Positions 13,086 through 63,831 of a DNA stretch of 64,000 nucleotides are shown one piece after another (the first letter of the stretch is position 1; each line of letters starts with the position of its first letter). Source of the DNA: Candidatus Freyarchaeum deiterrae (lineage in GTDB: Archaea > Asgardarchaeota > Jordiarchaeia > Jordiarchaeales > Jordiarchaeaceae). The notes beneath the pieces were generated by a model. The model saw nothing but the letters and a program-made list of their open reading frames with translations. It was not told the DNA's origin and did not search any database. The position numbers and the translations under genes are program-made. The stretch is taken from contig CP147778.1 of NCBI GenBank assembly GCA_037305845.1, forward strand, positions 2,112,001-2,176,000, written 5' to 3'.

Positions 13086-13970
13086 TTAAAGAATCCCTAT
13101 AACCTTGTGAGCTTGAATCGAGAGCGAAATATCTTTTTTATCAAGATACTTTGACGCAGTCTCCGTGAACTGGAATAATTGTTTTATCGTGGGTTTCTCT
13201 TTTACTTCCCCGAATGGTGTCACAATCTGTATGCATAATGGGCATCCAATCTTGGCTAGTTCCAATGCGTACCATTCAATATTCTCTGATTTCGTCTCAG
13301 AAGTGACTACAACCTTGGCGAATGTCTTCTTTTTCGCATCCATAAAAATTTTCATAGTTTGGAATTCTCTCTCCACAAGAGCGCTCCAGTCGGAGGCAGC
13401 TCCCGCTGTTTCGTCTTTGATATCACAACAGCAATACTCAAAAAGATCAACAATTTTCAATGCGCAATTGGGCAAAGACCCGTTAGTCTCAAGAAAAAGA
13501 TTGTACCCGCCCGATACAAGTAACTCCGAAACTTCCTTTAGGAAATCTGTTTGATGCAAAGGCTCTCCACCAGTAAATGAAATTGAATGAAGATCCGGAG
13601 TTTCAATCCTTTTCAAATATTCGTACAACCTATCTGAGTCTATAGGGTTTGAAAATAGCGTGAACTCTCCGGTGCCTGGGTTTTCTTCCATTCTGAATTG
13701 CTGCATTTCCGGATTTTGAGCTCCAGGCGAGTGGCGTCTTTAGAGCGTACTCCACAAGATGTCGCACCACCTGCAGCCCTCGGTTCCGAATTCTCCTAAG
13801 GCTAGGTTGCAGCCCGCTAATCGAGCGATTCGACGAAAGGATAAAACTCATCCTTCCTATATCTGACGCTTCCCATAACACGAGCCGCTGACATTGCCTC
13901 CTTCCCCTTTACCTCCCTCTTAAGGGATCTGGTAGGAGGAGAACATCTCAGCGACCCATCCCTTAACCAA
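13086..13970 (-). CDS. queE: 7-carboxy-7-deazaguanine synthase QueE (radical SAM), four exons: 13970-13929, 13907-13859, 13828-13761, 13730-13086; 267 aa after predicted splicing
   Basis: Joined exons read MVKGWVAEMFSSYQGEGGNVSGSCYGKRQIFARLAGCNLALGEFGTEGCRWCDSPGAQ...FTGGEPL...LETNG...DIK...QAHK; GAGGTGA RBS before TTG 13970; exons total 804 nt. Confidence 0.92.
13731..13760 (-). other. Predicted BHB-like mRNA intron 3 of queE (30 nt)
   Basis: UGCG-AC^A-UCUU g UGGAG(UACG)CUCUA AAGA-CGCC-AC^U: 9-bp stem, 3 of 4 central pairs; in-frame TAA; removal gives W-C-D-S. Confidence 0.85.
13829..13858 (-). other. Predicted BHB-like mRNA intron 2 of queE (30 nt)
   Basis: AGAU-AU^A-GGAAGGAUGA(GUU)UUAUCCUUUC-GUCG-AA^U: 10-bp intron stem, 3 of 4 central pairs; unspliced frame has TAG and TGA; removal gives Q-I-F-A-R-L-A-G-C. 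Confidence 0.85.
13908..13928 (-). other. Predicted BHB mRNA intron 1 of queE (21 nt)
   Basis: UACC-AG^A-UCCCU(UAAG)AGGGA-GGUA-AA^G: strict 4-bp helix with two 3-nt bulges; contains an in-frame TAA; removal gives Y-Q-G-E-G. Confidence 0.9.
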
Positions 13971-55361: not shown

Positions 55362-56960
55362 TTGGGAGAACAATGCATACTAACACATGATGTAGGAACA
55401 TCAGGAGACAAAGCAGCTCTGGTAGGAACATCGGGCAAAATACTCGGAACCGCAGAGAAAGACTACGACGTGGACTATCCACAACCGGGATGGGCTGAGC
55501 AGGACCCCAAACAGTACTGGGACGCAGTAGTAGAAACAACCAGAACACTCTTAAAAAAGTCAAAAATTAACCCCAAAGAAGTGATAGGAATAAGCCTAGA
55601 CGCCCAGATGATGGCAGCAATACCAGTAGACAAAGACTGCAACGCCCTCCGACCAGCAATGATCTGGCTCGACTCCCGAAGCCAAAAACAATCAGCAGAA
55701 TTCGAAAAAAAATTCGACCCCATAAGCCAACTGCTCGACATGGGAAACCTACCCATGACCACCGCAAAGGACGTCATACCCAAAATCTGGTGGATCCGAG
55801 ACAACGAGCCCAAAGTTTTTGAGAAAGCCTACAAATGGTGCGATGTTAAAGACTACGTAATCCGCAAACTCGTAGGAGAATTCTACACGGATTGGAGCAC
55901 CGCTCTCCTCTTCGGCCTTTTCCACATCCAAAACCATGTCTGGGTCGACCAAATAATCGAAGGAGTAGGCTTATCAAGAGATAAGCTCTGCGAAGTCACC
56001 AAAACCACGGATGTTATAGGAACCCTAACAAAAGAAGCAGCCCGCGAATTGGGACTCACCACAGAAACATCTGTAATCTGTGGCGCAGGTGACGCACCAG
56101 CCACTAATGTGGGTTCAGGCGCAATTAAAACCCTTGAAGGACACCTATACCTAGGCTCATCCGGATGGGTCTCCGTAACAATGGATAATTTTGCCGTTGA
56201 CCCCGAAACAGGCATCGCAACCATCTACTCCGGAGTCCCAGGAAAATTCATGCTCATCGGCGAAATGGAAAGCGTCGCCGCACCCTTCAAATGGTTCAGA
56301 GACAAGCTCGCCACAGCAGAGTGCCAAACAGCCACAGAACGAAACGTTGACCCCTACGACATCATAAACGAAGAAGCAGCGGCAGTAGGACCGGGCGCAA
56401 AGAAATTAATCTTTCTACCATGGATGCTCGGAGAAAGGGCACCAATACAGGACACCACAGTCAGAGGCGGCTTCATCAACCTAAGCTTCCACCACGGCCC
56501 ACCCGAGATCGCAAGATCCATACTGGAAGGAGTAGCCTACCACATAAGGTGGATAACAAAAAACATTCAGAAAATCCTCGACCGAGGCGTCCTAGACCCA
56601 AACCAACCCAAACCCGAAATCAAATCCCTAAACGCCTGCGGAGGAGGAGCAATAAGCCCCCTCTGGATGCAAATATTCGCCGACGTACTCGACAAGAGAA
56701 TACGCCTCATCAAAGAACCCCGCTCTGTAGCAGCACTTGGAATCGCAATAATATCAATGATCGGACTAAAAATATACCCGGACTTTGAAACTGCAGTAAA
56801 CAAAATAATAAAAACCGATAAAGACTACTACCCAAACGAAAACCTGAAACCAATATACGACGAAATGTACAATGTCTACGAAGGAATCTACCCAAAACTA
56901 AAAGACGTTTACCAAACCCTTAACAAGGGCGAAACAACCAAAAAAATAATAGAACCCTAA
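55362..56960 (+). CDS. FGGY carbohydrate kinase (xylulokinase-like)
   Basis: DVGTSG.KA, WAEQDP, IWLDSR, GAGD, GERAP, GGGA. Confidence 0.92.
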   Translation: MGEQCILTHDVGTSGDKAALVGTSGKILGTAEKDYDVDYPQPGWAEQDPKQYWDAVVETTRTLLKKSKINPKEVIGISLDAQMMAAIPVDKDCNALRPAMIWLDSRSQKQSAEFEKKFDPISQLLDMGNLPMTTAKDVIPKIWWIRDNEPKVFEKAYKWCDVKDYVIRKLVGEFYTDWSTALLFGLFHIQNHVWVDQIIEGVGLSRDKLCEVTKTTDVIGTLTKEAARELGLTTETSVICGAGDAPATNVGSGAIKTLEGHLYLGSSGWVSVTMDNFAVDPETGIATIYSGVPGKFMLIGEMESVAAPFKWFRDKLATAECQTATERNVDPYDIINEEAAAVGPGAKKLIFLPWMLGERAPIQDTTVRGGFINLSFHHGPPEIARSILEGVAYHIRWITKNIQKILDRGVLDPNQPKPEIKSLNACGGGAISPLWMQIFADVLDKRIRLIKEPRSVAALGIAIISMIGLKIYPDFETAVNKIIKTDKDYYPNENLKPIYDEMYNVYEGIYPKLKDVYQTLNKGETTKKIIEP

Positions 56961-57069: not shown

Positions 57070-57945
57070 ATGTATCCTCTACCTTTTGATTATTTTTCGC
57101 CAAAAAGTCTCGGCGAAGCTTTGGAGCTTTACGGGGATGGCTCAGAGATTAAAATACTAGCAGGTGGGCAGAGCCTGATACCTTCTCTGAAATTGAGATT
57201 GGTTTCTTTGAAAGGCGTGGTGGATATAACGGGCATCAAAGAACTTGATTATGTACGTAAAGATGAAGACTTGCTTAGGATAGGGGCGTTAACAACTACT
57301 GCCATCTTGGAAAGTGATGAAATAATCGCATCTTCAATGCCCATTCTAAAGGAGGCTGCGGCTCAAATTGCTGACCCCTTAGTAAGGAATAGGGGCACAG
57401 TGGGCGGCAATTTGTGTTATCCTGATCCAGTGTATGATTTGCCAGCGGTGATGCTCGCCTTAAACGCGTCAATGGTTGCGGCTAGCAAAAAGGGAACCAG
57501 AAGGATTAGCGCTGATTCGTTCTTCATAGACTCATTTAAGACCGCATTGAAGCCTGGAGAGATTCTTACCGAAGTCGAGGTGCCGTTGCAGCTGGGCAGG
57601 TTTGGGGGCGCATATTGCAAAGTGAAGAAGGGCTCGGGAGGCTATTCTATTGCTGGCGTCGCGTCCTGTCTTTCAGTTGCGGATGATGATGGTGCCATTT
57701 CTGGATGCCGGATCGGATTGACTGCTGTTGGTCCTAAGGCTCTAAGAGCTGAGAAAGCAGAACAAGCTCTTCTGAAAAGAGTGCCAACGCCATCTACGTT
57801 GGATAAAGCTGCTGCATTGGCTGTAAAGGCTTCAAAGCCGTCTTCTGACTCCAATGCGTCAGAGGGTTATAGGCGCAAGGTGTTATACAAGCTTGTAAAA
57901 GACTCGGTAGAAGCAGCTTATGGCAGGGCAACCCAAGTGAGGTGA
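57070..57945 (+). CDS. Xanthine oxidase-family FAD subunit (CoxM/CutB-like)
   Basis: LAGGQSLIP, VRNRGTVGGN. Confidence 0.92.
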   Translation: MYPLPFDYFSPKSLGEALELYGDGSEIKILAGGQSLIPSLKLRLVSLKGVVDITGIKELDYVRKDEDLLRIGALTTTAILESDEIIASSMPILKEAAAQIADPLVRNRGTVGGNLCYPDPVYDLPAVMLALNASMVAASKKGTRRISADSFFIDSFKTALKPGEILTEVEVPLQLGRFGGAYCKVKKGSGGYSIAGVASCLSVADDDGAISGCRIGLTAVGPKALRAEKAEQALLKRVPTPSTLDKAAALAVKASKPSSDSNASEGYRRKVLYKLVKDSVEAAYGRATQVR

Positions 57946-57951
57946 CGGGAA

Positions 57952-58425
57952 ATGAAGATAAATTTTAGGGTAAATGGAGAAGATGTTGAACTTGATGTGG
58001 AGCCGAGGAGGCTTCTTGTGAGTGTACTTAGGGATGAGCTTGGGCTCACTGGAACGCATATGGGTTGTGATACTACGAATTGCGGTGCATGTGCTGTCTT
58101 GGTGGATGGCAAGGTAATCAAGTCGTGTACGATGCTTGCGGTTCAGGCGGATGGCAAGGAGATACTTACCATAGAGGGTTTGGCGAAAGAGGGCGAGTTG
58201 CACCCTGTTCAGCGTGCTTTTTTGGAGAAGCATGGATTGCAGTGCGGTTTCTGCACGCCGGGAATGATAATGACGTCTTACTGGCTTCTGAGCCAAAACA
58301 AGGACCAAGATGAGGAGGAGATAAAGAGGCTGCTCTCGGGAAACCTGTGCAGGTGCACGGGTTACCATGGAATTGTAGAGTCTGTAAAATACGCTAGGAT
58401 GCTTATGGAGAAAGAGGGGAGGTAA
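57952..58425 (+). CDS. Xanthine oxidase-family 2Fe-2S subunit (CoxS/CutC-like)
   Basis: [27 protein letters not shown]. Confidence 0.95.
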
Positions 58426-58429
58426 TGCT

Positions 58430-60457
58430 ATGGGAGGACCTGAATTATTTGTTAGGGGCGCAGGGCGATATGTGGATGATATTAAGTTGCCACACATGCT
58501 GTATATGATGGTAGCTAGGAGCCCTTACGCGAGGGCAAGGGTACTTTCTGTGAAGGGCGGTATTAATAGGGATGATCTGAAGGCGCTTGTAGGTGGGTTT
58601 GGAGAGGGCGGGCGCTCAGATGTTGATCCTGTTTTGCTGCATCCTGTTTTTGCTCAGGATACTGTGAATTATGTCGGTCAGCCGGTTGCTGCGGTGTTTG
58701 CGGATGACCGTTACGTTGCTAGAGACAAGCTGGATGAAGTAGAAGTTGAATATGAGCAGTTGAAGCCTATTATGACTATAGACGACTCTCTTTCCAGCGA
58801 GCCTATTCATGCTGGTACTAAATCAAACATCATACGACAGTCATGGATGGGTGCCGATTTTGAGGATCCCAAGTCTCCTGTTGTACTGGAAGACGAGTTT
58901 ACGATAGGAAGGGTTGTGAATAACCCTCTCGAACCGAGAGGAATAATCGCGGATTATGATGGCTCCAGATTGACCGTTTACATCTCTACACAGGCGGTAT
59001 TCAGCATAAAGGCTGGGTTGTGCAGTGTCCTGAAGCTGGATAGTTCCAAGGTTAGGGTTTTGCAGGCAGACACAGGAGGCGCGTTCGGGTCGAAAAGTGC
59101 GCTATATCCTGAATACGTCATGGCAGCTTACGCGGCAATGAAATACAAGCAACCAGTGAAGTGGATTGAGAGCCGTAGCGAACACCTAGCCGCTAGTCAA
59201 CCAGGCAGAGGCATGCGTGGCAAGATGAAGATATTTGCCGACAAAGATGGAAAGGTTGACGCGTTGCGTGGCGAGGTAACCACAGACGCTGGTGCTTTTG
59301 GCGGGACTTCTGGAACCTCTTCGGCGTTTTTCGTGGCACTGCAGTTGACAGGACCTTATGGAATAGGAAAGGCGTATGTGCAAGCAACTTCCGTTATGAC
59401 GAACAAGCCTCCTCAAGGTCCCTACCGGGGCGCGGGGAGACCGGAGGCTGCTTTCTTCATGGAAAGAATGATGGACCTGCTTGCCGACGAGCTTGGAAAA
59501 GAAGCAGATGAAGTACGCCTCATTAACACCACCACAGAGAGCTTCAAGTCGCCACTTGGCCTACAGATTGAAGCGTCGCGTCCGTTCTATGAGAATGCTG
59601 TTGCCGAGCTAAAGTACAGGGAAAAATCAAAAAGCAGCAAGGCAGGGCTGGGCTTTTTCGTTCTGTTTCCCGCAGCCTTCATGGGGGAGACTGCTAGAAT
59701 AAAAATTAAGGACGGCAAGGTAGACGTTTGGCTCGGAGGAAACCAACACGGCCAGGCACACACTGCCTTTGTAAAGAGATTACTCAATGAAGAACTCGGA
59801 ATCCCCAACGACTTGGTAACGCTAAACAACGGAGACACTGACATGCTTGAGAAAGGCGTCGGAACCTGGGGAAGCAGATCCGCAATCGTGGGCGGGGCAG
59901 CCGTTGTCACCGCAGCCAGAAAATTGAAGGAGCAAGTAGAAAGCGAGCACGGAAGCTACACGACAGAAGCCCTGCTAGAAGGAGATTATAATGCAGAAGT
60001 TTTCTACGACTACAGAGCACAGTTAAACTCCTTCGGCGCAGCCCTCGCAACAGTAAGCATCAATAAGTATGGCATGGTCAACGTAAAAGAGTCTGCAGCT
60101 TGTTACGATGTGGGTAGGGCACTCACCCCCGGCGTAGTAGAAAGCCAGATAATCGGGGGAACTATTCAGGGAATCGGCCAAGTATTGTATGAGAGCGTTG
60201 TGCACGATTCGGAAGGCAGACTGCTGACAAAAAGCCTCTTCGACGCAGGCTTACCCGTAGCCGAAAACATGCCAGAATTCCAAGTCAAGATAATCGAAAA
60301 CCCCTCTTCACTACCTCATGGCGCTAAAGGCCTAGGCGAGGCCCCAACAATAGGCACACCGGTCGCCCTTGTGAGAGCCATCGAAAGAATATCCGGCAAA
60401 AGAATAACGCATACGCCAGTCAAACCTGAAGAATTAATTGAAGATTCAGACACATAA
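58430..60457 (+). CDS. Xanthine oxidase-family molybdopterin subunit (aldehyde oxidoreductase-like)
   Basis: GGAFGSK, PYRGAGRPEA, HGQ, GTWGSRS, AKGLGE. Confidence 0.92.
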   Translation: MGGPELFVRGAGRYVDDIKLPHMLYMMVARSPYARARVLSVKGGINRDDLKALVGGFGEGGRSDVDPVLLHPVFAQDTVNYVGQPVAAVFADDRYVARDKLDEVEVEYEQLKPIMTIDDSLSSEPIHAGTKSNIIRQSWMGADFEDPKSPVVLEDEFTIGRVVNNPLEPRGIIADYDGSRLTVYISTQAVFSIKAGLCSVLKLDSSKVRVLQADTGGAFGSKSALYPEYVMAAYAAMKYKQPVKWIESRSEHLAASQPGRGMRGKMKIFADKDGKVDALRGEVTTDAGAFGGTSGTSSAFFVALQLTGPYGIGKAYVQATSVMTNKPPQGPYRGAGRPEAAFFMERMMDLLADELGKEADEVRLINTTTESFKSPLGLQIEASRPFYENAVAELKYREKSKSSKAGLGFFVLFPAAFMGETARIKIKDGKVDVWLGGNQHGQAHTAFVKRLLNEELGIPNDLVTLNNGDTDMLEKGVGTWGSRSAIVGGAAVVTAARKLKEQVESEHGSYTTEALLEGDYNAEVFYDYRAQLNSFGAALATVSINKYGMVNVKESAACYDVGRALTPGVVESQIIGGTIQGIGQVLYESVVHDSEGRLLTKSLFDAGLPVAENMPEFQVKIIENPSSLPHGAKGLGEAPTIGTPVALVRAIERISGKRITHTPVKPEELIEDSDT

Positions 60458-60609
60458 CTTACACTTTTTTAACAGCAAAGAGATCTAGGCACGCCAAGGC
60501 TGCAAGGCTAAACTAATTATTATTCAACTTTTGATTAGTTGTTTCAAATTATCGCTAGGACGGGGATGCTCAATTCACCTTTCTCCACGTTCAATGAAAA
60601 GCATCCTAG

Positions 60610-61413
60610 GTGAGTGGCATGATTACAGACTTGAAAATTTTGAATGAAGCGGCGCATCTATTGGAAAATGGAACTAGACTTGCGTTGTGCACGGTTATCG
60701 AGAAAAGGGGTTCAGGGCCTAGAGATGTTGGTGCGAAAATGATTGTTGGGGAAGACGAAAAGACTTATGGGACTATTGGGGGAGGTGCCCTTGAGAGAGC
60801 TTTGGTCAACGAGTGCATGAAAGCTTTGGAAGAAGGCAAATCAAGAAGAGTTACTTTCAACATGACGAGGGAAAAGAAAGAGGGAATGGTTGAAACGGGT
60901 CTGATATGCGGAGGCGAATTAACTGTGTTTGTTGACGTATTAGAACCAGATTTAAGGTTAATAATAGTGGGTTCTGGTCATGTAGCGTTGCCCTTAGCGA
61001 GACTAGCCGAAATTGTAGGATTTAAAACACTCATAGTTGATGATGACATCGACCTAGCCAACAAAGAGCGATTTCCAATGGCTGAAAGAATCATTACTGG
61101 CGATTTTGCCAAAATATTGAATGAGCTTGATGTAGGCTCCAACGACTCTGTCGTCATTGCTCACGGCGAACCTGAACATGATTACAAGGCATTAGAGAAG
61201 ATGATTGAAAAAAAACCCGCCTACATTGGACTGCTTGGAAGCCGGACGAAAGTTGCGATACTCGTTCAGAGGCTTCGAAAGCAAGGAATCAGCGAGGCAC
61301 AATTGAAGATATTACACGCACCCTTAGGCTTGGACATTGGGGCTCAGACCCCTGAAGAAATCGGAATAAGCGTACTCGCCGAGATTATCCAGAGCAAAAG
61401 AAAAAGAACATGA
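60610..61413 (+). CDS. xdhC: XdhC/CoxF molybdenum cofactor insertion chaperone
   Basis: GSGPR..GAKM, GTIGGG, CGG, YIGLLGS, PLGLDIGAQTPEEI. Confidence 0.93.
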   Translation: MSGMITDLKILNEAAHLLENGTRLALCTVIEKRGSGPRDVGAKMIVGEDEKTYGTIGGGALERALVNECMKALEEGKSRRVTFNMTREKKEGMVETGLICGGELTVFVDVLEPDLRLIIVGSGHVALPLARLAEIVGFKTLIVDDDIDLANKERFPMAERIITGDFAKILNELDVGSNDSVVIAHGEPEHDYKALEKMIEKKPAYIGLLGSRTKVAILVQRLRKQGISEAQLKILHAPLGLDIGAQTPEEIGISVLAEIIQSKRKRT

Positions 61414-61450
61414 ACATAGCACGAATCACTTACTTGAGTATTTACGGTTC

Positions 61451-62098
61451 TCAAATGCCATAGCTACCAGTTTTTATTAGACTGCGAGCGCGAGCCAAGT
61501 CTTCAGGAGTGTCTATGTCCATAATGGACCACTCCGGTGCCTCGATTGTGAACAGTTTGTCAGCATGCCTATTAACAACGTCTCGTATTGTCTCGGGGTT
61601 TTTCAAAGCTAGTATTTCGCCGAAAAGCTCCTTATGAAAGAGCAGCGGATGACCTTTCTTCCCCTTATGTATTGGACTCACAATCCATGCTTTGTCTACA
61701 TTGTTCTCCATCTGTTCAATCATAACGTTCAAAAAGTTCTTGTCAAGAATAGGTTCGTCTCCAAGAACCAAAAATGCAGCGTCAACATGACGCATTAGTC
61801 GCAGTCCCTTTTGAAAAGATGAAATCATCCCCTGTTCATAGTCATCATTTATAACCGTCTTAATATCTTCTAACCATGGCTTTATGGCTTCGATTATCTG
61901 CTGAGGTTCGTGTCCTAACACAATTACTTTTTCATCTGCGTCCGTAGCTGCTATTGCATCCAAAACATTCCCTATCAAAGTATCATCATTCAGACGCAGC
62001 AGGAGCTTGTTTTGCCCCATCCTTTCGGATTTACCGGCTGCTAGAACAATTGCTGCGGTAATTATCATCAACACCTCCCATGCCGAAAATAGCGCCAT
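61451..62098 (-). CDS. mocA: Molybdenum cofactor cytidylyltransferase (MocA-like)
   Basis: LAAGKSERMG.NKLL, GMISS, LGDEP, GHP, DIDTPED; true start probably the second Met. Confidence 0.85.
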   Translation of the reverse strand: MALFSAWEVLMIITAAIVLAAGKSERMGQNKLLLRLNDDTLIGNVLDAIAATDADEKVIVLGHEPQQIIEAIKPWLEDIKTVINDDYEQGMISSFQKGLRLMRHVDAAFLVLGDEPILDKNFLNVMIEQMENNVDKAWIVSPIHKGKKGHPLLFHKELFGEILALKNPETIRDVVNRHADKLFTIEAPEWSIMDIDTPEDLARARSLIKTGSYGI

Positions 62099-62253
62099 CC
62101 TCTCTGGGGTTGCACCAAACGTCGTGACTATTGCTTCCTAGTTGATTGCACCAAAATATAACCATATTCAAGTATATAACTATGCTCAACGAAAATCGCG
62201 GCAAAAAAATAAAAACAAAAAAGAGAAGGGGAAAGCCCCGAAACTAAATTCCT

Positions 62254-63647
62254 TCACACTATTTTACTCGTCTTCCAAGTGCCCAAGGCACGACCGAGCT
62301 CCTTGTGATCCTCAGCATACTTCTCCAACGGTATACCCTGCACAGAAGCGTCGATAGCCTGACGAAAAGAAGTAGCACCAGCACGAGGACCATCAGGATG
62401 CGCATGAATAGCGCCACCAACACCTACTATGAAATCCTTACCGAGATCCGCCATAATCTGAGGAACAATCTGAACAATGACACCACCAGCAGGCATAGGC
62501 AAAGTAGGCTTCAAATGATAGAACGGAAACGTCAACTCACGCCAAACCTGCAGATAAGTCTCCTTCATGAAAGGAGCTTTTCTGGAGGCTCGGGAACTAC
62601 TTGCACTCAATGTGCGAAATCAGTCTCCCGAATTCCTATTCCAAAGGGCGCTGGGTTAAAATTTTAACAGGGAAGTCCTGTTAAATATACTTCCATGTCA
62701 GCGCCGGCTAGTCTGCAGAATTTTCCTAGTATGAGTCTGGCGTCTACTCCGTATTCTGGTGATGCGTAGTGTACTGCTGCATAGTCTGTGTGTGCTAAAA
62801 CTGGTACTTTTATGCTGGGGTCTTCTGCTAGGTCTCTGAATGTTTCGTATCCTGTTGTGATGATGTTGACCATTAGTGCGTTTGCTCCTAGGTCTATGGC
62901 TTTTTCTGCTAGTTCTAGTGTTTTTTTGGGTCGGTCGGTTATGTTGACTGTGTAGAGTGTTTTTTCTCCTTTTTCTTCGTCTGCTTTGTCGATTGCTTCC
63001 ATGAATTTTACTACCCGGTCTTCTACTCGGTTTAGTTCCATGTCTGCTAGTAGTTCATCGTCTTTGATGAAGTCTACTCCGCCTGCTGCGACTTCGTATG
63101 CTAGGTCTGCTCCTATTTCGCAGGGTGAGTAGACGCAGGGTTTTATCATGTTGTTTAGTATGGGTCGGTCTTTTACTCCCAGTATCTCTCTTACTCCTTT
63201 TATTCCGAATTTTGGTCCTTTGAATCCGCTTACCCATTTTTTGGGGAATTGGAGGTCCAGTAGTTTTATTTTTCCGGCAGCGGAGAGGTTTCCGACTACT
63301 GTGCTCAGGAGTACGGGTAGGTTGGGGTAGCCGAGGTTGGTTATGGGGTACGCGATTTTTATTATCCAGTGTCTTTCTTCTGTTTTTGGTAGCTGCCATT
63401 GGTGTGGTGGGATTTCGAATACTGCTGTTACTCGGGCTGCGTGCAGTCTTCTGACTTCGGGTGTTTCTTTGGGTACGGGTGTCCAGGTTCCGGTGCTTTG
63501 TTCTAGGGCTGCTGCTACGCCCATTGTGTATCCGTCTAGCCATGAGGGCTGGGTTGTGTAGTATGTGGCTATTATGTTTTCTTCGGGGTCTATGCCTTCG
63601 GGTAGTGCTTCCATTGATGTTAATAATTCATAATCTTTTTCGCCCAA
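62254..63647 (-). CDS. RuBisCO-like protein (form IV), three exons: 63647-62687, 62656-62639, 62579-62254; 434 aa after predicted splicing
   Basis: EQSTGTW, GPKFG, IKP, IKDDE, LAH, then joined RLAGADMEVYPAPFGKAPF..PMPAGG..GGAIHAHPDG..AG; exons total 1305 nt; GGAGG before TTG 63647. Confidence 0.9.
62580..62638 (-). other. Predicted BHB mRNA intron B of the RuBisCO-like gene (59 nt)
   Basis: UUGG-AA^U-AGG..UUCGGGA..GCAC(AUUGA)GUGC..UCCCGAG-CCU-CCAG-AA^A; long intron hairpin; removal repairs a frameshift and gives F-G-K-A-P-F. Confidence 0.85.
62657..62686 (-). other. Predicted BHB mRNA intron A of the RuBisCO-like gene (30 nt)
   Basis: AAGU-AU^A-UUUAACAGG(ACUUC)CCUGUUAAA-AUUU-UA^A: strict BHB with a 9-bp intron stem; in-frame TAA; removal gives V-Y-P-A-P. 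Confidence 0.9.
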
Positions 63648-63831
63648 CTTTTTTCCTCCATTTTTAATCAAGTTTATTCGTGGTTGTAGAACTTTTAAAG
63701 TTTTGTTAAGCTCATTTTGTTGTGTGGTTTTGGTTTTCGAGGATTTTAGATAGTTTTTTAAAGGAATTTCGCGTTCTATCTATGAACAGATTCTTGCCGC
63801 TTGTGGTGGGTTAAGAACAGGAGGTTTGTTT

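What the first reader, a model, noticed from the sequence alone, without database searches (positions are those of the whole stretch)
62580..62686. RuBisCO-like gene with two introns flanking an 18-nt micro-exon at loop 6
Seen in sequence: intron A (62686-62657) and intron B (62638-62580) bracket an 18-nt exon; the spliced reading is DMEVYPAPFGKAPF. Intron B splits the Lys codon of the GK motif, which by position matches the loop-6 lysine of the RuBisCO fold (inference). This extends the introns beyond RNA-processing genes to a carbon-metabolism enzyme.
Basis: partly seen in the sequence, partly recalled or inferred. Interest (0 to 1): 0.85.

Follow-up and report, generated by a model that had tools for sequence, protein, structure and literature searches.

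The report
Two tRNA-type introns flank archaeal micro-exon
A RuBisCO-like enzyme gene of an Asgard archaeon is interrupted by two tiny tRNA-style introns that leave an 18-base exon coding for the enzyme's active-site loop, so its messenger RNA very probably has to be cut and rejoined twice; splicing inside an archaeal coding sequence is published for only one gene (cbf5), with a single intron.

Summary
Confirmed at the stated coordinates. The minus-strand form IV RuBisCO-like gene of this Freyarchaeia/Jordarchaeia genome carries a 30-nt and a 59-nt insert around an 18-nt exon. Both fold as bulge-helix-bulge (BHB) motifs. Cutting after the second bulge base restores an open frame reading VYPAPFGKAPF, matching intron-less congeners (88% identical); every other splice form, including exon skipping, hits a stop. 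The exon encodes loop 6, and intron B splits its conserved lysine codon. Intron A recurs in four other assemblies with compensatory changes. Intron B is absent from the closest relative, and a distant Asgard has an unrelated intron at the same base. The gene is under purifying selection, and the genome encodes a two-subunit EndA with the broad-specificity loop, plus RtcB. Caveats: no RNA evidence; intron B has an equally stable, unproductive register; one intron A variant is degenerate. Intron B shares four ordered blocks with this genome's ychF intron junction, hinting at copying between genes. This scan found such Asgard mRNA introns before on other DNA, including an Atabeyarchaeia RLP. I found no publication beyond cbf5 and one 5'-UTR case.

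The parts
62687..63647 (-). RLP exon 1 (likely start TTG at 63647, 7 nt after a GGAGG at 63659-63655; the longest frame opens at 63671): N-terminal domain and barrel strands 1-6, with the KDDE motif
   Evidence: the start choice is an inference from the Shine-Dalgarno-like site and orthologue alignment
62699..62705 (-). 5' arm of a 7-bp exon1-exon2 helix (pairs with 62653-62647) that would hold the two exons together after intron A is cut (-16.4 kcal/mol duplex)
62657..62686 (-). Intron A, 30 nt, canonical BHB with a 9-bp inner stem; contains an in-frame TAA; splits the Tyr codon T|AC
   Evidence: homologues in G002, L089, L090 and L091/L092
62639..62656 (-). 18-nt micro-exon encoding (Y)PAPFG(K), i.e. 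loop 6 of the RuBisCO barrel; it also supplies the outer helix of BHB A and the outer and central helices of BHB B
62580..62638 (-). Intron B, 59 nt, BHB with two competing registers (productive -20.7, unproductive 57-nt register -21.3 kcal/mol); splits the loop-6 Lys codon A|AA
   Evidence: absent from all congeners examined, including the closest, L089; a 32-nt intron of unrelated sequence sits at the same base in G040
62590..62634 (-). Core of intron B sharing four ordered blocks with the ychF exon-intron junction 17 kb away (G000:C1:2191730 onward, minus strand)
62254..62579 (-). RLP exon 3: helix 6 to the C-terminus (barrel strands 7-8, phosphate-binding GG motifs); third codon positions switch here from A/C-rich to G/T-rich
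62202..62230 (-). Oligo-T tract after the stop codon, a probable archaeal terminator
   Evidence: seen in sequence; function inferred

Best explanation
The gene is a live form IV RuBisCO-like gene whose pre-mRNA carries two archaeal BHB introns. The cell's tRNA-splicing endonuclease (two-subunit EndA with the broad-specificity loop) cuts after the second base of each of four bulges, and RtcB joins exon 1 to the 18-nt exon to exon 3, restoring loop 6 and its lysine. The micro-exon's bases are shared out between the two BHBs without overlap, so both motifs can form at once. A 7-bp exon1-exon2 helix keeps the short exon tethered, which favours ordered joining over skipping. Intron A is old within the genus; intron B is a recent gain at a site hit independently in another Asgard family. 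Shown: sequence, folds, frame restoration, intron-less orthologues, covariation, purifying selection, presence of the enzyme genes. Inferred: cleavage, ligation, order of events, and the enzyme's substrate (probably a sugar-phosphate enolase or isomerase-type reaction; an FGGY kinase is the commonest neighbour).
For: Only double removal opens the frame. BHB geometry holds at both sites. Intron-less congeners at 88% identity define the same inserts, and 57 distinct intact orthologue sequences were found among the loci held. Across four intron A alleles the 9-bp inner stem is 100% paired, with 5 double-sided changes in the whole structure, 0 of 500 shuffles reaching that, and 32-49% pairing when slid. 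dN/dS is 0.15 for exon 1 and 0.12 for exon 3 against the closest relative. The RLP is more conserved (88%) than most neighbouring genes (77-86%). PAPFG is preserved although it lies behind a stop codon. EndA alpha and beta subunits are present, with the A. pernix CSL Lys44 position kept (PMC3241643), and RtcB is present. The same genome carries a 32-nt BHB insert splitting the catalytic Asp codon of a cbf5-like gene, the published spliced site (PMC2738675). Other Asgard RLPs carry unrelated BHB inserts at the same or other conserved motifs (G040, G021, G031).
Against: No transcript or enzyme data. Intron B's productive register is not the predicted minimum-energy fold (-20.7 against -21.3 for the shifted register and -25.5 for the MFE), and its two outer pairs have near-zero ensemble probability. 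The 33-nt intron A variant in the closest relative, L089, has only a 3-bp central helix and a 7-nt 3' loop; a canonical cut there would create a stop, so a relaxed BHL-type cut must be assumed. Covariation rests on four related alleles, two of them nearly identical. Intron B occurs in one assembly only. My homology-free genome scan showed only modest excess over shifted controls (18 against 6 and 8).
Confidence: 0.9

Rival explanations
1. Intron A is spliced, but the recent intron B is cut inefficiently or in the wrong register, so this particular allele is weakly expressed or recently inactivated.
For: Two near-equal registers; the shifted one removes 57 nt and gives a frameshift and stop. 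B is found in one genome only. The genome has a second, form III RuBisCO, although that is a different enzyme.
Against: Exon 3 shows dN/dS 0.12 against L089 and no lesions. All active-site residues of the clade are kept. The Tyr-to-Phe codon change, unique among congeners, completes B's central helix. An independent intron at the same base in G040 leaves that gene otherwise intact.
Confidence: 0.06
2. The inserts are not removed from the RNA; the enzyme is made as two polypeptides (335 aa and about 104-118 aa), or by ribosomal bypass, read-through and frameshifting.
For: Both halves are open frames with Pfam RuBisCO hits, and a downstream ATG exists.
Against: A split product would lack PAPFGK, which is conserved across the clade and is kept here only behind a stop. 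No split homologue was found among 254 Asgard genomes with a strong hit; the breaks checked were contig ends or BHB inserts. The matched take-off and landing codons that bypass needs (own knowledge of T4 gene 60) are absent. Recoding would not explain conserved BHB geometry.
Confidence: 0.02
3. Pseudogene with chance hairpin insertions, or an assembly artefact.
For: None specific; intron B is seen in only one assembly.
Against: Intron A is present in five independent assemblies with compensatory changes. The gene shows purifying selection. The genome length matches the curated, long-read-validated 3.58-Mbp Freyarchaeia genome (PMC11291895).
Confidence: 0.02

Closest known systems
cbf5 pre-mRNA intron of Desulfurococcales and Sulfolobales (Watanabe 2002; Yokobori 2009, PMC2738675)
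   Same: Short (16-44 nt there; 30 and 59 nt here) ORF-less BHB intron in coding sequence, splitting the codon of a key conserved residue after its first base; often relaxed motifs; gain and loss among relatives; heterotetrameric EndA.
   Different: Two introns in one mRNA, with an 18-nt internal exon that serves both BHBs; a metabolic gene unrelated to RNA modification; an Asgard host; the same gene hit at four different positions across the phylum; splicing not yet shown.
HVO_1309 5'-UTR BHB intron of Haloferax volcanii (PMC7714728)
   Same: An mRNA substrate of the splicing endonuclease.
   Different: It lies outside the coding sequence and is a single intron.
Multi-intron tRNA genes of Freyarchaeia, Atabeyarchaeia and Thermoproteales (PMC11291895; bioRxiv 10.64898/2026.10.13.758758)
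   Same: Same lineages, same motif, several introns per transcript, very short exons, repeated independent gains.
   Different: Those papers treat tRNA genes only (my term searches of both found no mention of mRNA introns); there is no tRNA scaffold here, so exon-exon pairing has to hold the pieces.
Form IV RuBisCO-like proteins, nearest MtnW/YkrW DK-MTP-1-P enolases (PDB 2oek, 4nas, 2zvi)
   Same: Same fold (TM 0.85), KDDE motif, loss of the K177, R295 and H327 equivalents, P.PYG loop-6 motif.
   Different: 37% identity and below the MtnW cut-offs; keeps the loop-6 lysine where MtnW has serine; commonly sits next to an FGGY sugar kinase, and no methionine-salvage gene was among the common neighbours identified.

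Membership tests
Archaeal BHB (EndA/RtcB) intron | 4-bp central helix flanked by two 3-nt bulges on opposite strands | tested here: met
   A: 4/4 helix, 9-bp inner stem, 2 plus 7 outer pairs. B: 4/4 helix, 3-bp inner stem, 2 outer pairs. B has a competing register.
Archaeal BHB (EndA/RtcB) intron | Cuts after the second base of each bulge restore the homologous product | tested here: met
   442-codon frame, YPAPFGKAPF against YPAPYGKAPF in intron-less congeners
Archaeal BHB (EndA/RtcB) intron | Structure conserved while sequence drifts | tested here: met
   Intron A, four alleles: inner stem 100% paired, 5 double-sided changes; few, related sequences; the L089 variant is relaxed
Archaeal BHB (EndA/RtcB) intron | Structure conservation of intron B | tested here: inconclusive
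   No homologue of B at this site; the G040 insert at the same base is unrelated in sequence but also BHB-like (3/4 helix, 8-bp stem)
Archaeal BHB (EndA/RtcB) intron | Host encodes EndA able to cut outside tRNA, and RtcB | tested here: met
   Two EndA paralogues; the catalytic one aligns without a gap over the CSL and keeps Lys44; RtcB E 1e-171
Archaeal BHB (EndA/RtcB) intron | Removal from RNA in vivo, or cleavage by EndA in vitro | not testable with these tools
   No RNA reads or assays available
Form IV RuBisCO-like protein | RuBisCO fold and KDDE motif, but missing residues needed for RuBP carboxylation | tested here: met
   K177 to C, R295 to T, H327 to V, S379 to A; K175, K201, D203, E204, H294 and K334 kept; best folds are RLPs
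MtnW / DK-MTP-1-P enolase | NCBIfam equivalog cut-off | tested here: not met
   368 against 409 and 315 against 514 bits for the intact congener
Form III RuBisCO / OiaX decarboxylase | NCBIfam equivalog cut-offs | tested here: not met
   283 against 497 and 184 against 700 bits
Group I/II or spliceosomal intron | Ribozyme core, or GT-AG ends | tested here: not met
   30 and 59 nt; no Rfam hit at E up to 1; ends are AT..TA and TA..AA

The most novel reading that the evidence does not exclude
In these Asgard archaea the tRNA-splicing machinery routinely builds multi-exon mRNAs with exons as short as 18 nt, and new introns spread between protein genes by copying: RLP intron B and the ychF intron of the same genome would be one donor-recipient pair (exon flank captured, or a hairpin copied through a 9-nt match), giving a concrete arrival route for archaeal introns.
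Probability: 0.45. Interest if true: 0.9.

Novelty: new variant of a known kind. Interest (0 to 1): 0.75.

Why it matters
The papers I could search report splicing within an archaeal coding sequence for one gene with one intron. A two-intron mRNA with an 18-nt exon would show that protein-only tRNA-type splicing can assemble multi-exon messages in the prokaryotes closest to eukaryotes. It also means that genes annotated as split or broken in these genomes may be intact, which affects metabolic reconstructions. The locus gives direct tests for open questions: how EndA and RtcB keep exon order without a tRNA scaffold; why introns land in codons of conserved active-site residues (twice independently at this lysine); and how archaeal introns arrive, which a 2026 preprint on Asgard tRNA introns leaves open. 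Metatranscriptomes were made from the soil samples behind the genome this one most likely is (PMC11291895), so the key test is cheap.

Tried and rejected
A homology-free genome-wide BHB scan was mostly noise: loose filters gave no excess over shifted-cut controls; strict filters gave 18 against 6 and 8, so I give no genome-wide intron count. A BLAST of both introns against the genome found no clear copy; the ychF resemblance appears only as ordered blocks, and plain local-alignment scores are weak (3-10% of random segments score as well). A nested intron inside B: only weak 3/4-helix candidates, rejected. Intron B as a known small RNA: no Rfam hit. The codon-bias switch as a result of the introns: rejected, because intron-less congeners have it. 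Introns generally sitting at codon switches: not supported by the other strict candidates. Gain versus loss of intron A could not be settled: a small sample joined the A-bearing genomes (76-86%), a larger one put the intron-less clade inside (48-67%). The exact-protein contig look-up found nothing. My attempt to rebuild the three queE introns did not converge. Ribosomal bypass and split-protein readings were rejected as described under rivals.

Full report
Setting. The window lies in a single-contig genome of 3,576,204 bases. That length matches the curated 3.58-Mbp Freyarchaeia (also called Jordarchaeia) genome of PMC11291895, and earlier scan notes call it Jordarchaeaceae; the identification is an inference from size and kin. 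That paper reports introns in 92-95% of tRNA genes of this lineage and mentions two RbcL-like proteins in the genome, but my term searches found nothing on mRNA introns.

The observation. On the minus strand, a 335-codon frame with both RuBisCO Pfam domains stops at 62664, and a second frame carries the rest of the barrel. Removing 62686-62657 (A, 30 nt) and 62638-62580 (B, 59 nt) gives one open frame of 442 codons (434 from the likelier TTG at 63647) with the junction DMEVYPAPFGKAPF. Every other form stops early. Skipping the 18-nt exon keeps the frame but creates TAA at the new junction. The junction folds at z = -5.0. Shuffling the insert reproduces the motif in 1 of 200,000 trials for A and 0.4% for B.

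Independent definition of the boundaries. Three same-genus genomes (G003-G005, 88% identical) have an uninterrupted gene reading YPAPYGKAPF. The orthologue is widespread: 254 of 400 Asgard genomes match at E 1e-90 or better, and 57 distinct intact sequences were among the loci held. Breaks that I followed up were contig ends or short BHB-like inserts, apart from one unexplained 54-nt insert and two low-quality loci. No naturally split version was found.

Intron A. It recurs at the same base in G002 and in metagenome loci L089, L090 and L091/L092. In the four 30-nt alleles the inner 9-bp stem is fully paired, five pairs in the structure change on both sides, and no shuffle or slid control comes close. 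The sample is small and related. The closest relative, L089, has a 33-nt variant with a 3-bp central helix and a large 3' loop; only a relaxed cut restores the protein there. Enzymes with the crenarchaeal-specific loop cut such bulge-helix-loop motifs (PMC3241643). The genus has three subclades, two with A and one without. The trees do not settle whether A was gained once on a branch uniting the first two, or was ancestral and precisely lost.

Intron B. It is absent from every congener examined, including L089 (dS about 0.3), so it is a recent gain. A 32-nt BHB insert of unrelated sequence sits at the same base in G040, a different Asgard family whose nearest relatives are intron-less; that points to an independent gain. 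Both carriers have GGA A|AA at the junction, while intron-less congeners have GGT or GGG AAG. The Tyr-to-Phe change in G000 completes B's central helix. Two Atabeyarchaeia-like genomes carry further inserts in the same gene: 28 nt at GGG|IH in both, and 22 nt at AGA|L in one. The gene has thus been hit at four positions, all near conserved barrel motifs.

What the exon encodes. In a model of the intact congener (pLDDT 86), barrel strand 6 ends at the tyrosine and helix 6 starts just after the lysine, so the micro-exon is almost exactly loop 6. The lysine aligns without gaps to the HSGTAAGK lysine of form III RuBisCO, the K334 equivalent by established numbering. The protein keeps K175, K201, D203, E204, H294 and K334 but lacks K177, R295 and H327, so it is a form IV RLP. 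Its nearest structures are MtnW enolases (TM 0.85, 37% identity), but it misses the MtnW, form III and OiaX cut-offs and keeps the lysine that MtnW lacks. An FGGY kinase is its commonest neighbour (21 loci, not all independent), so a sugar-phosphate reaction is my best guess. That is inference.

Is the gene alive? dN/dS is 0.15 in exon 1 and 0.12 in exon 3 against L089. The RLP is more conserved against congeners (88%) than most neighbouring genes (77-86%). PAPFG is kept although it lies behind a stop codon. A pseudogene or a split protein does not explain this.

Machinery. The genome has two EndA paralogues. The catalytic one aligns to A. pernix EndA over the specificity loop and keeps Lys44. 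RtcB is present. My scan also turned up a 32-nt perfect BHB splitting the Asp codon of GTLD in a cbf5-like gene, the position published for crenarchaeal cbf5 (PMC2738675).

Mechanism. The 18 exon bases are divided without overlap: one closes A's 3' bulge, nine pair back to exon 1, two form B's outer pairs, four form B's central helix and two open B's 5' bulge. Both motifs can therefore form together. After cleavage, the exon1-exon2 duplex (-16.4 kcal/mol) is much stronger than exon2-exon3 (-7.4); an exon1-exon3 pairing (-22.7) is also possible but competes with a hairpin in exon 3. I infer that A is joined reliably and that B is the limiting, error-prone step. Skipped or mis-registered products would be non-coding waste.

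A four-block pattern, and even its 10-base apical part alone, occurs exactly twice in the genome: in intron B and at the ychF junction. The 9-base first block is ychF exon sequence, present in intron-less G002, and the ychF intron is found only in G000 among the congeners searched. The blocks were chosen after the fact, two of them follow from hairpin symmetry, the lower stems differ, and generic alignment scores are weak. I put homology at slightly better than even, with the direction unknown. It matters because a 2026 preprint found no general arrival route for Asgard tRNA introns.

Comparison and novelty. The library searches returned cbf5 as the only archaeal coding-sequence case, plus a 5'-UTR intron in Haloferax (PMC7714728). 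I found no report of a multi-intron archaeal mRNA or of mRNA introns in Asgard archaea; the library lacks most subscription papers. This scan has noted such introns on other DNA, including a 28-nt one in an Atabeyarchaeia RLP and a three-intron glyA; those notes are not independent evidence. Verdict: a new variant of a known kind, very probably real (0.9), awaiting RNA evidence; interest 0.75.

Noticed in passing
window 63647-62254 (RLP) and congeners L004-L007, L089-L091, L021: Third codon positions switch abruptly from about 90% A/C to about 85% G/T at loop 6, also in intron-less congeners and in Atabeyarchaeia-like G031. Only 5 other long ORFs of 1,922 in the genome do this, all in the same direction (they look like two CDC48-type ATPases, A/V-ATPase subunit B and others). 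RNA upstream is almost unstructured (-17 to -20 kcal per 180 nt) against -44 to -54 across the switch. Unexplained; it may have made this spot a preferred landing site.
   Followed up: partly
G000:C1:1483446-1483415, minus strand (outside the window): 32-nt perfect BHB insert splitting the Asp codon of GTLD in a cbf5-like gene, the same position as the crenarchaeal cbf5 intron.
   Followed up: partly
L148 / G000:C1:2191720-2191690, minus strand: 31-nt insert in the Walker A lysine codon of a ychF-family GTPase, absent from congeners G001-G005; like RLP intron B it follows GGA A. Several other candidates also follow GGAA, a possible preferred site.
   Followed up: partly
window 13731-13928, minus strand: BHB-like hairpin inserts in the queE-like gene (21 nt at 13928-13908, 30 nt at 13760-13731, and one near 13857-13830); my automatic reconstruction did not converge.
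   Followed up: partly
G000:C1:987065 (+), 2244134 (+), 2285374 (+), 1876927 (-): Further strict BHB inserts of 29-32 nt that restore conserved-looking motifs (for example an HD-domain LHDIGH motif).
   Followed up: no
L131 (Ga0209635_10058991), near RLP residue 131: A 54-nt in-frame, stop-containing hairpin insert in a distant Asgard RLP; no clean BHB found.
   Followed up: partly
window 57070-62098: A CoxMSL-like oxidoreductase, XdhC and MocA-like block lies between the FGGY kinase (55362-56960) and the RLP in this genome; in congeners G003-G005 the kinase lies within 0.4-1.4 kb of the RLP's 3' end.
   Followed up: no
   Followed up: no
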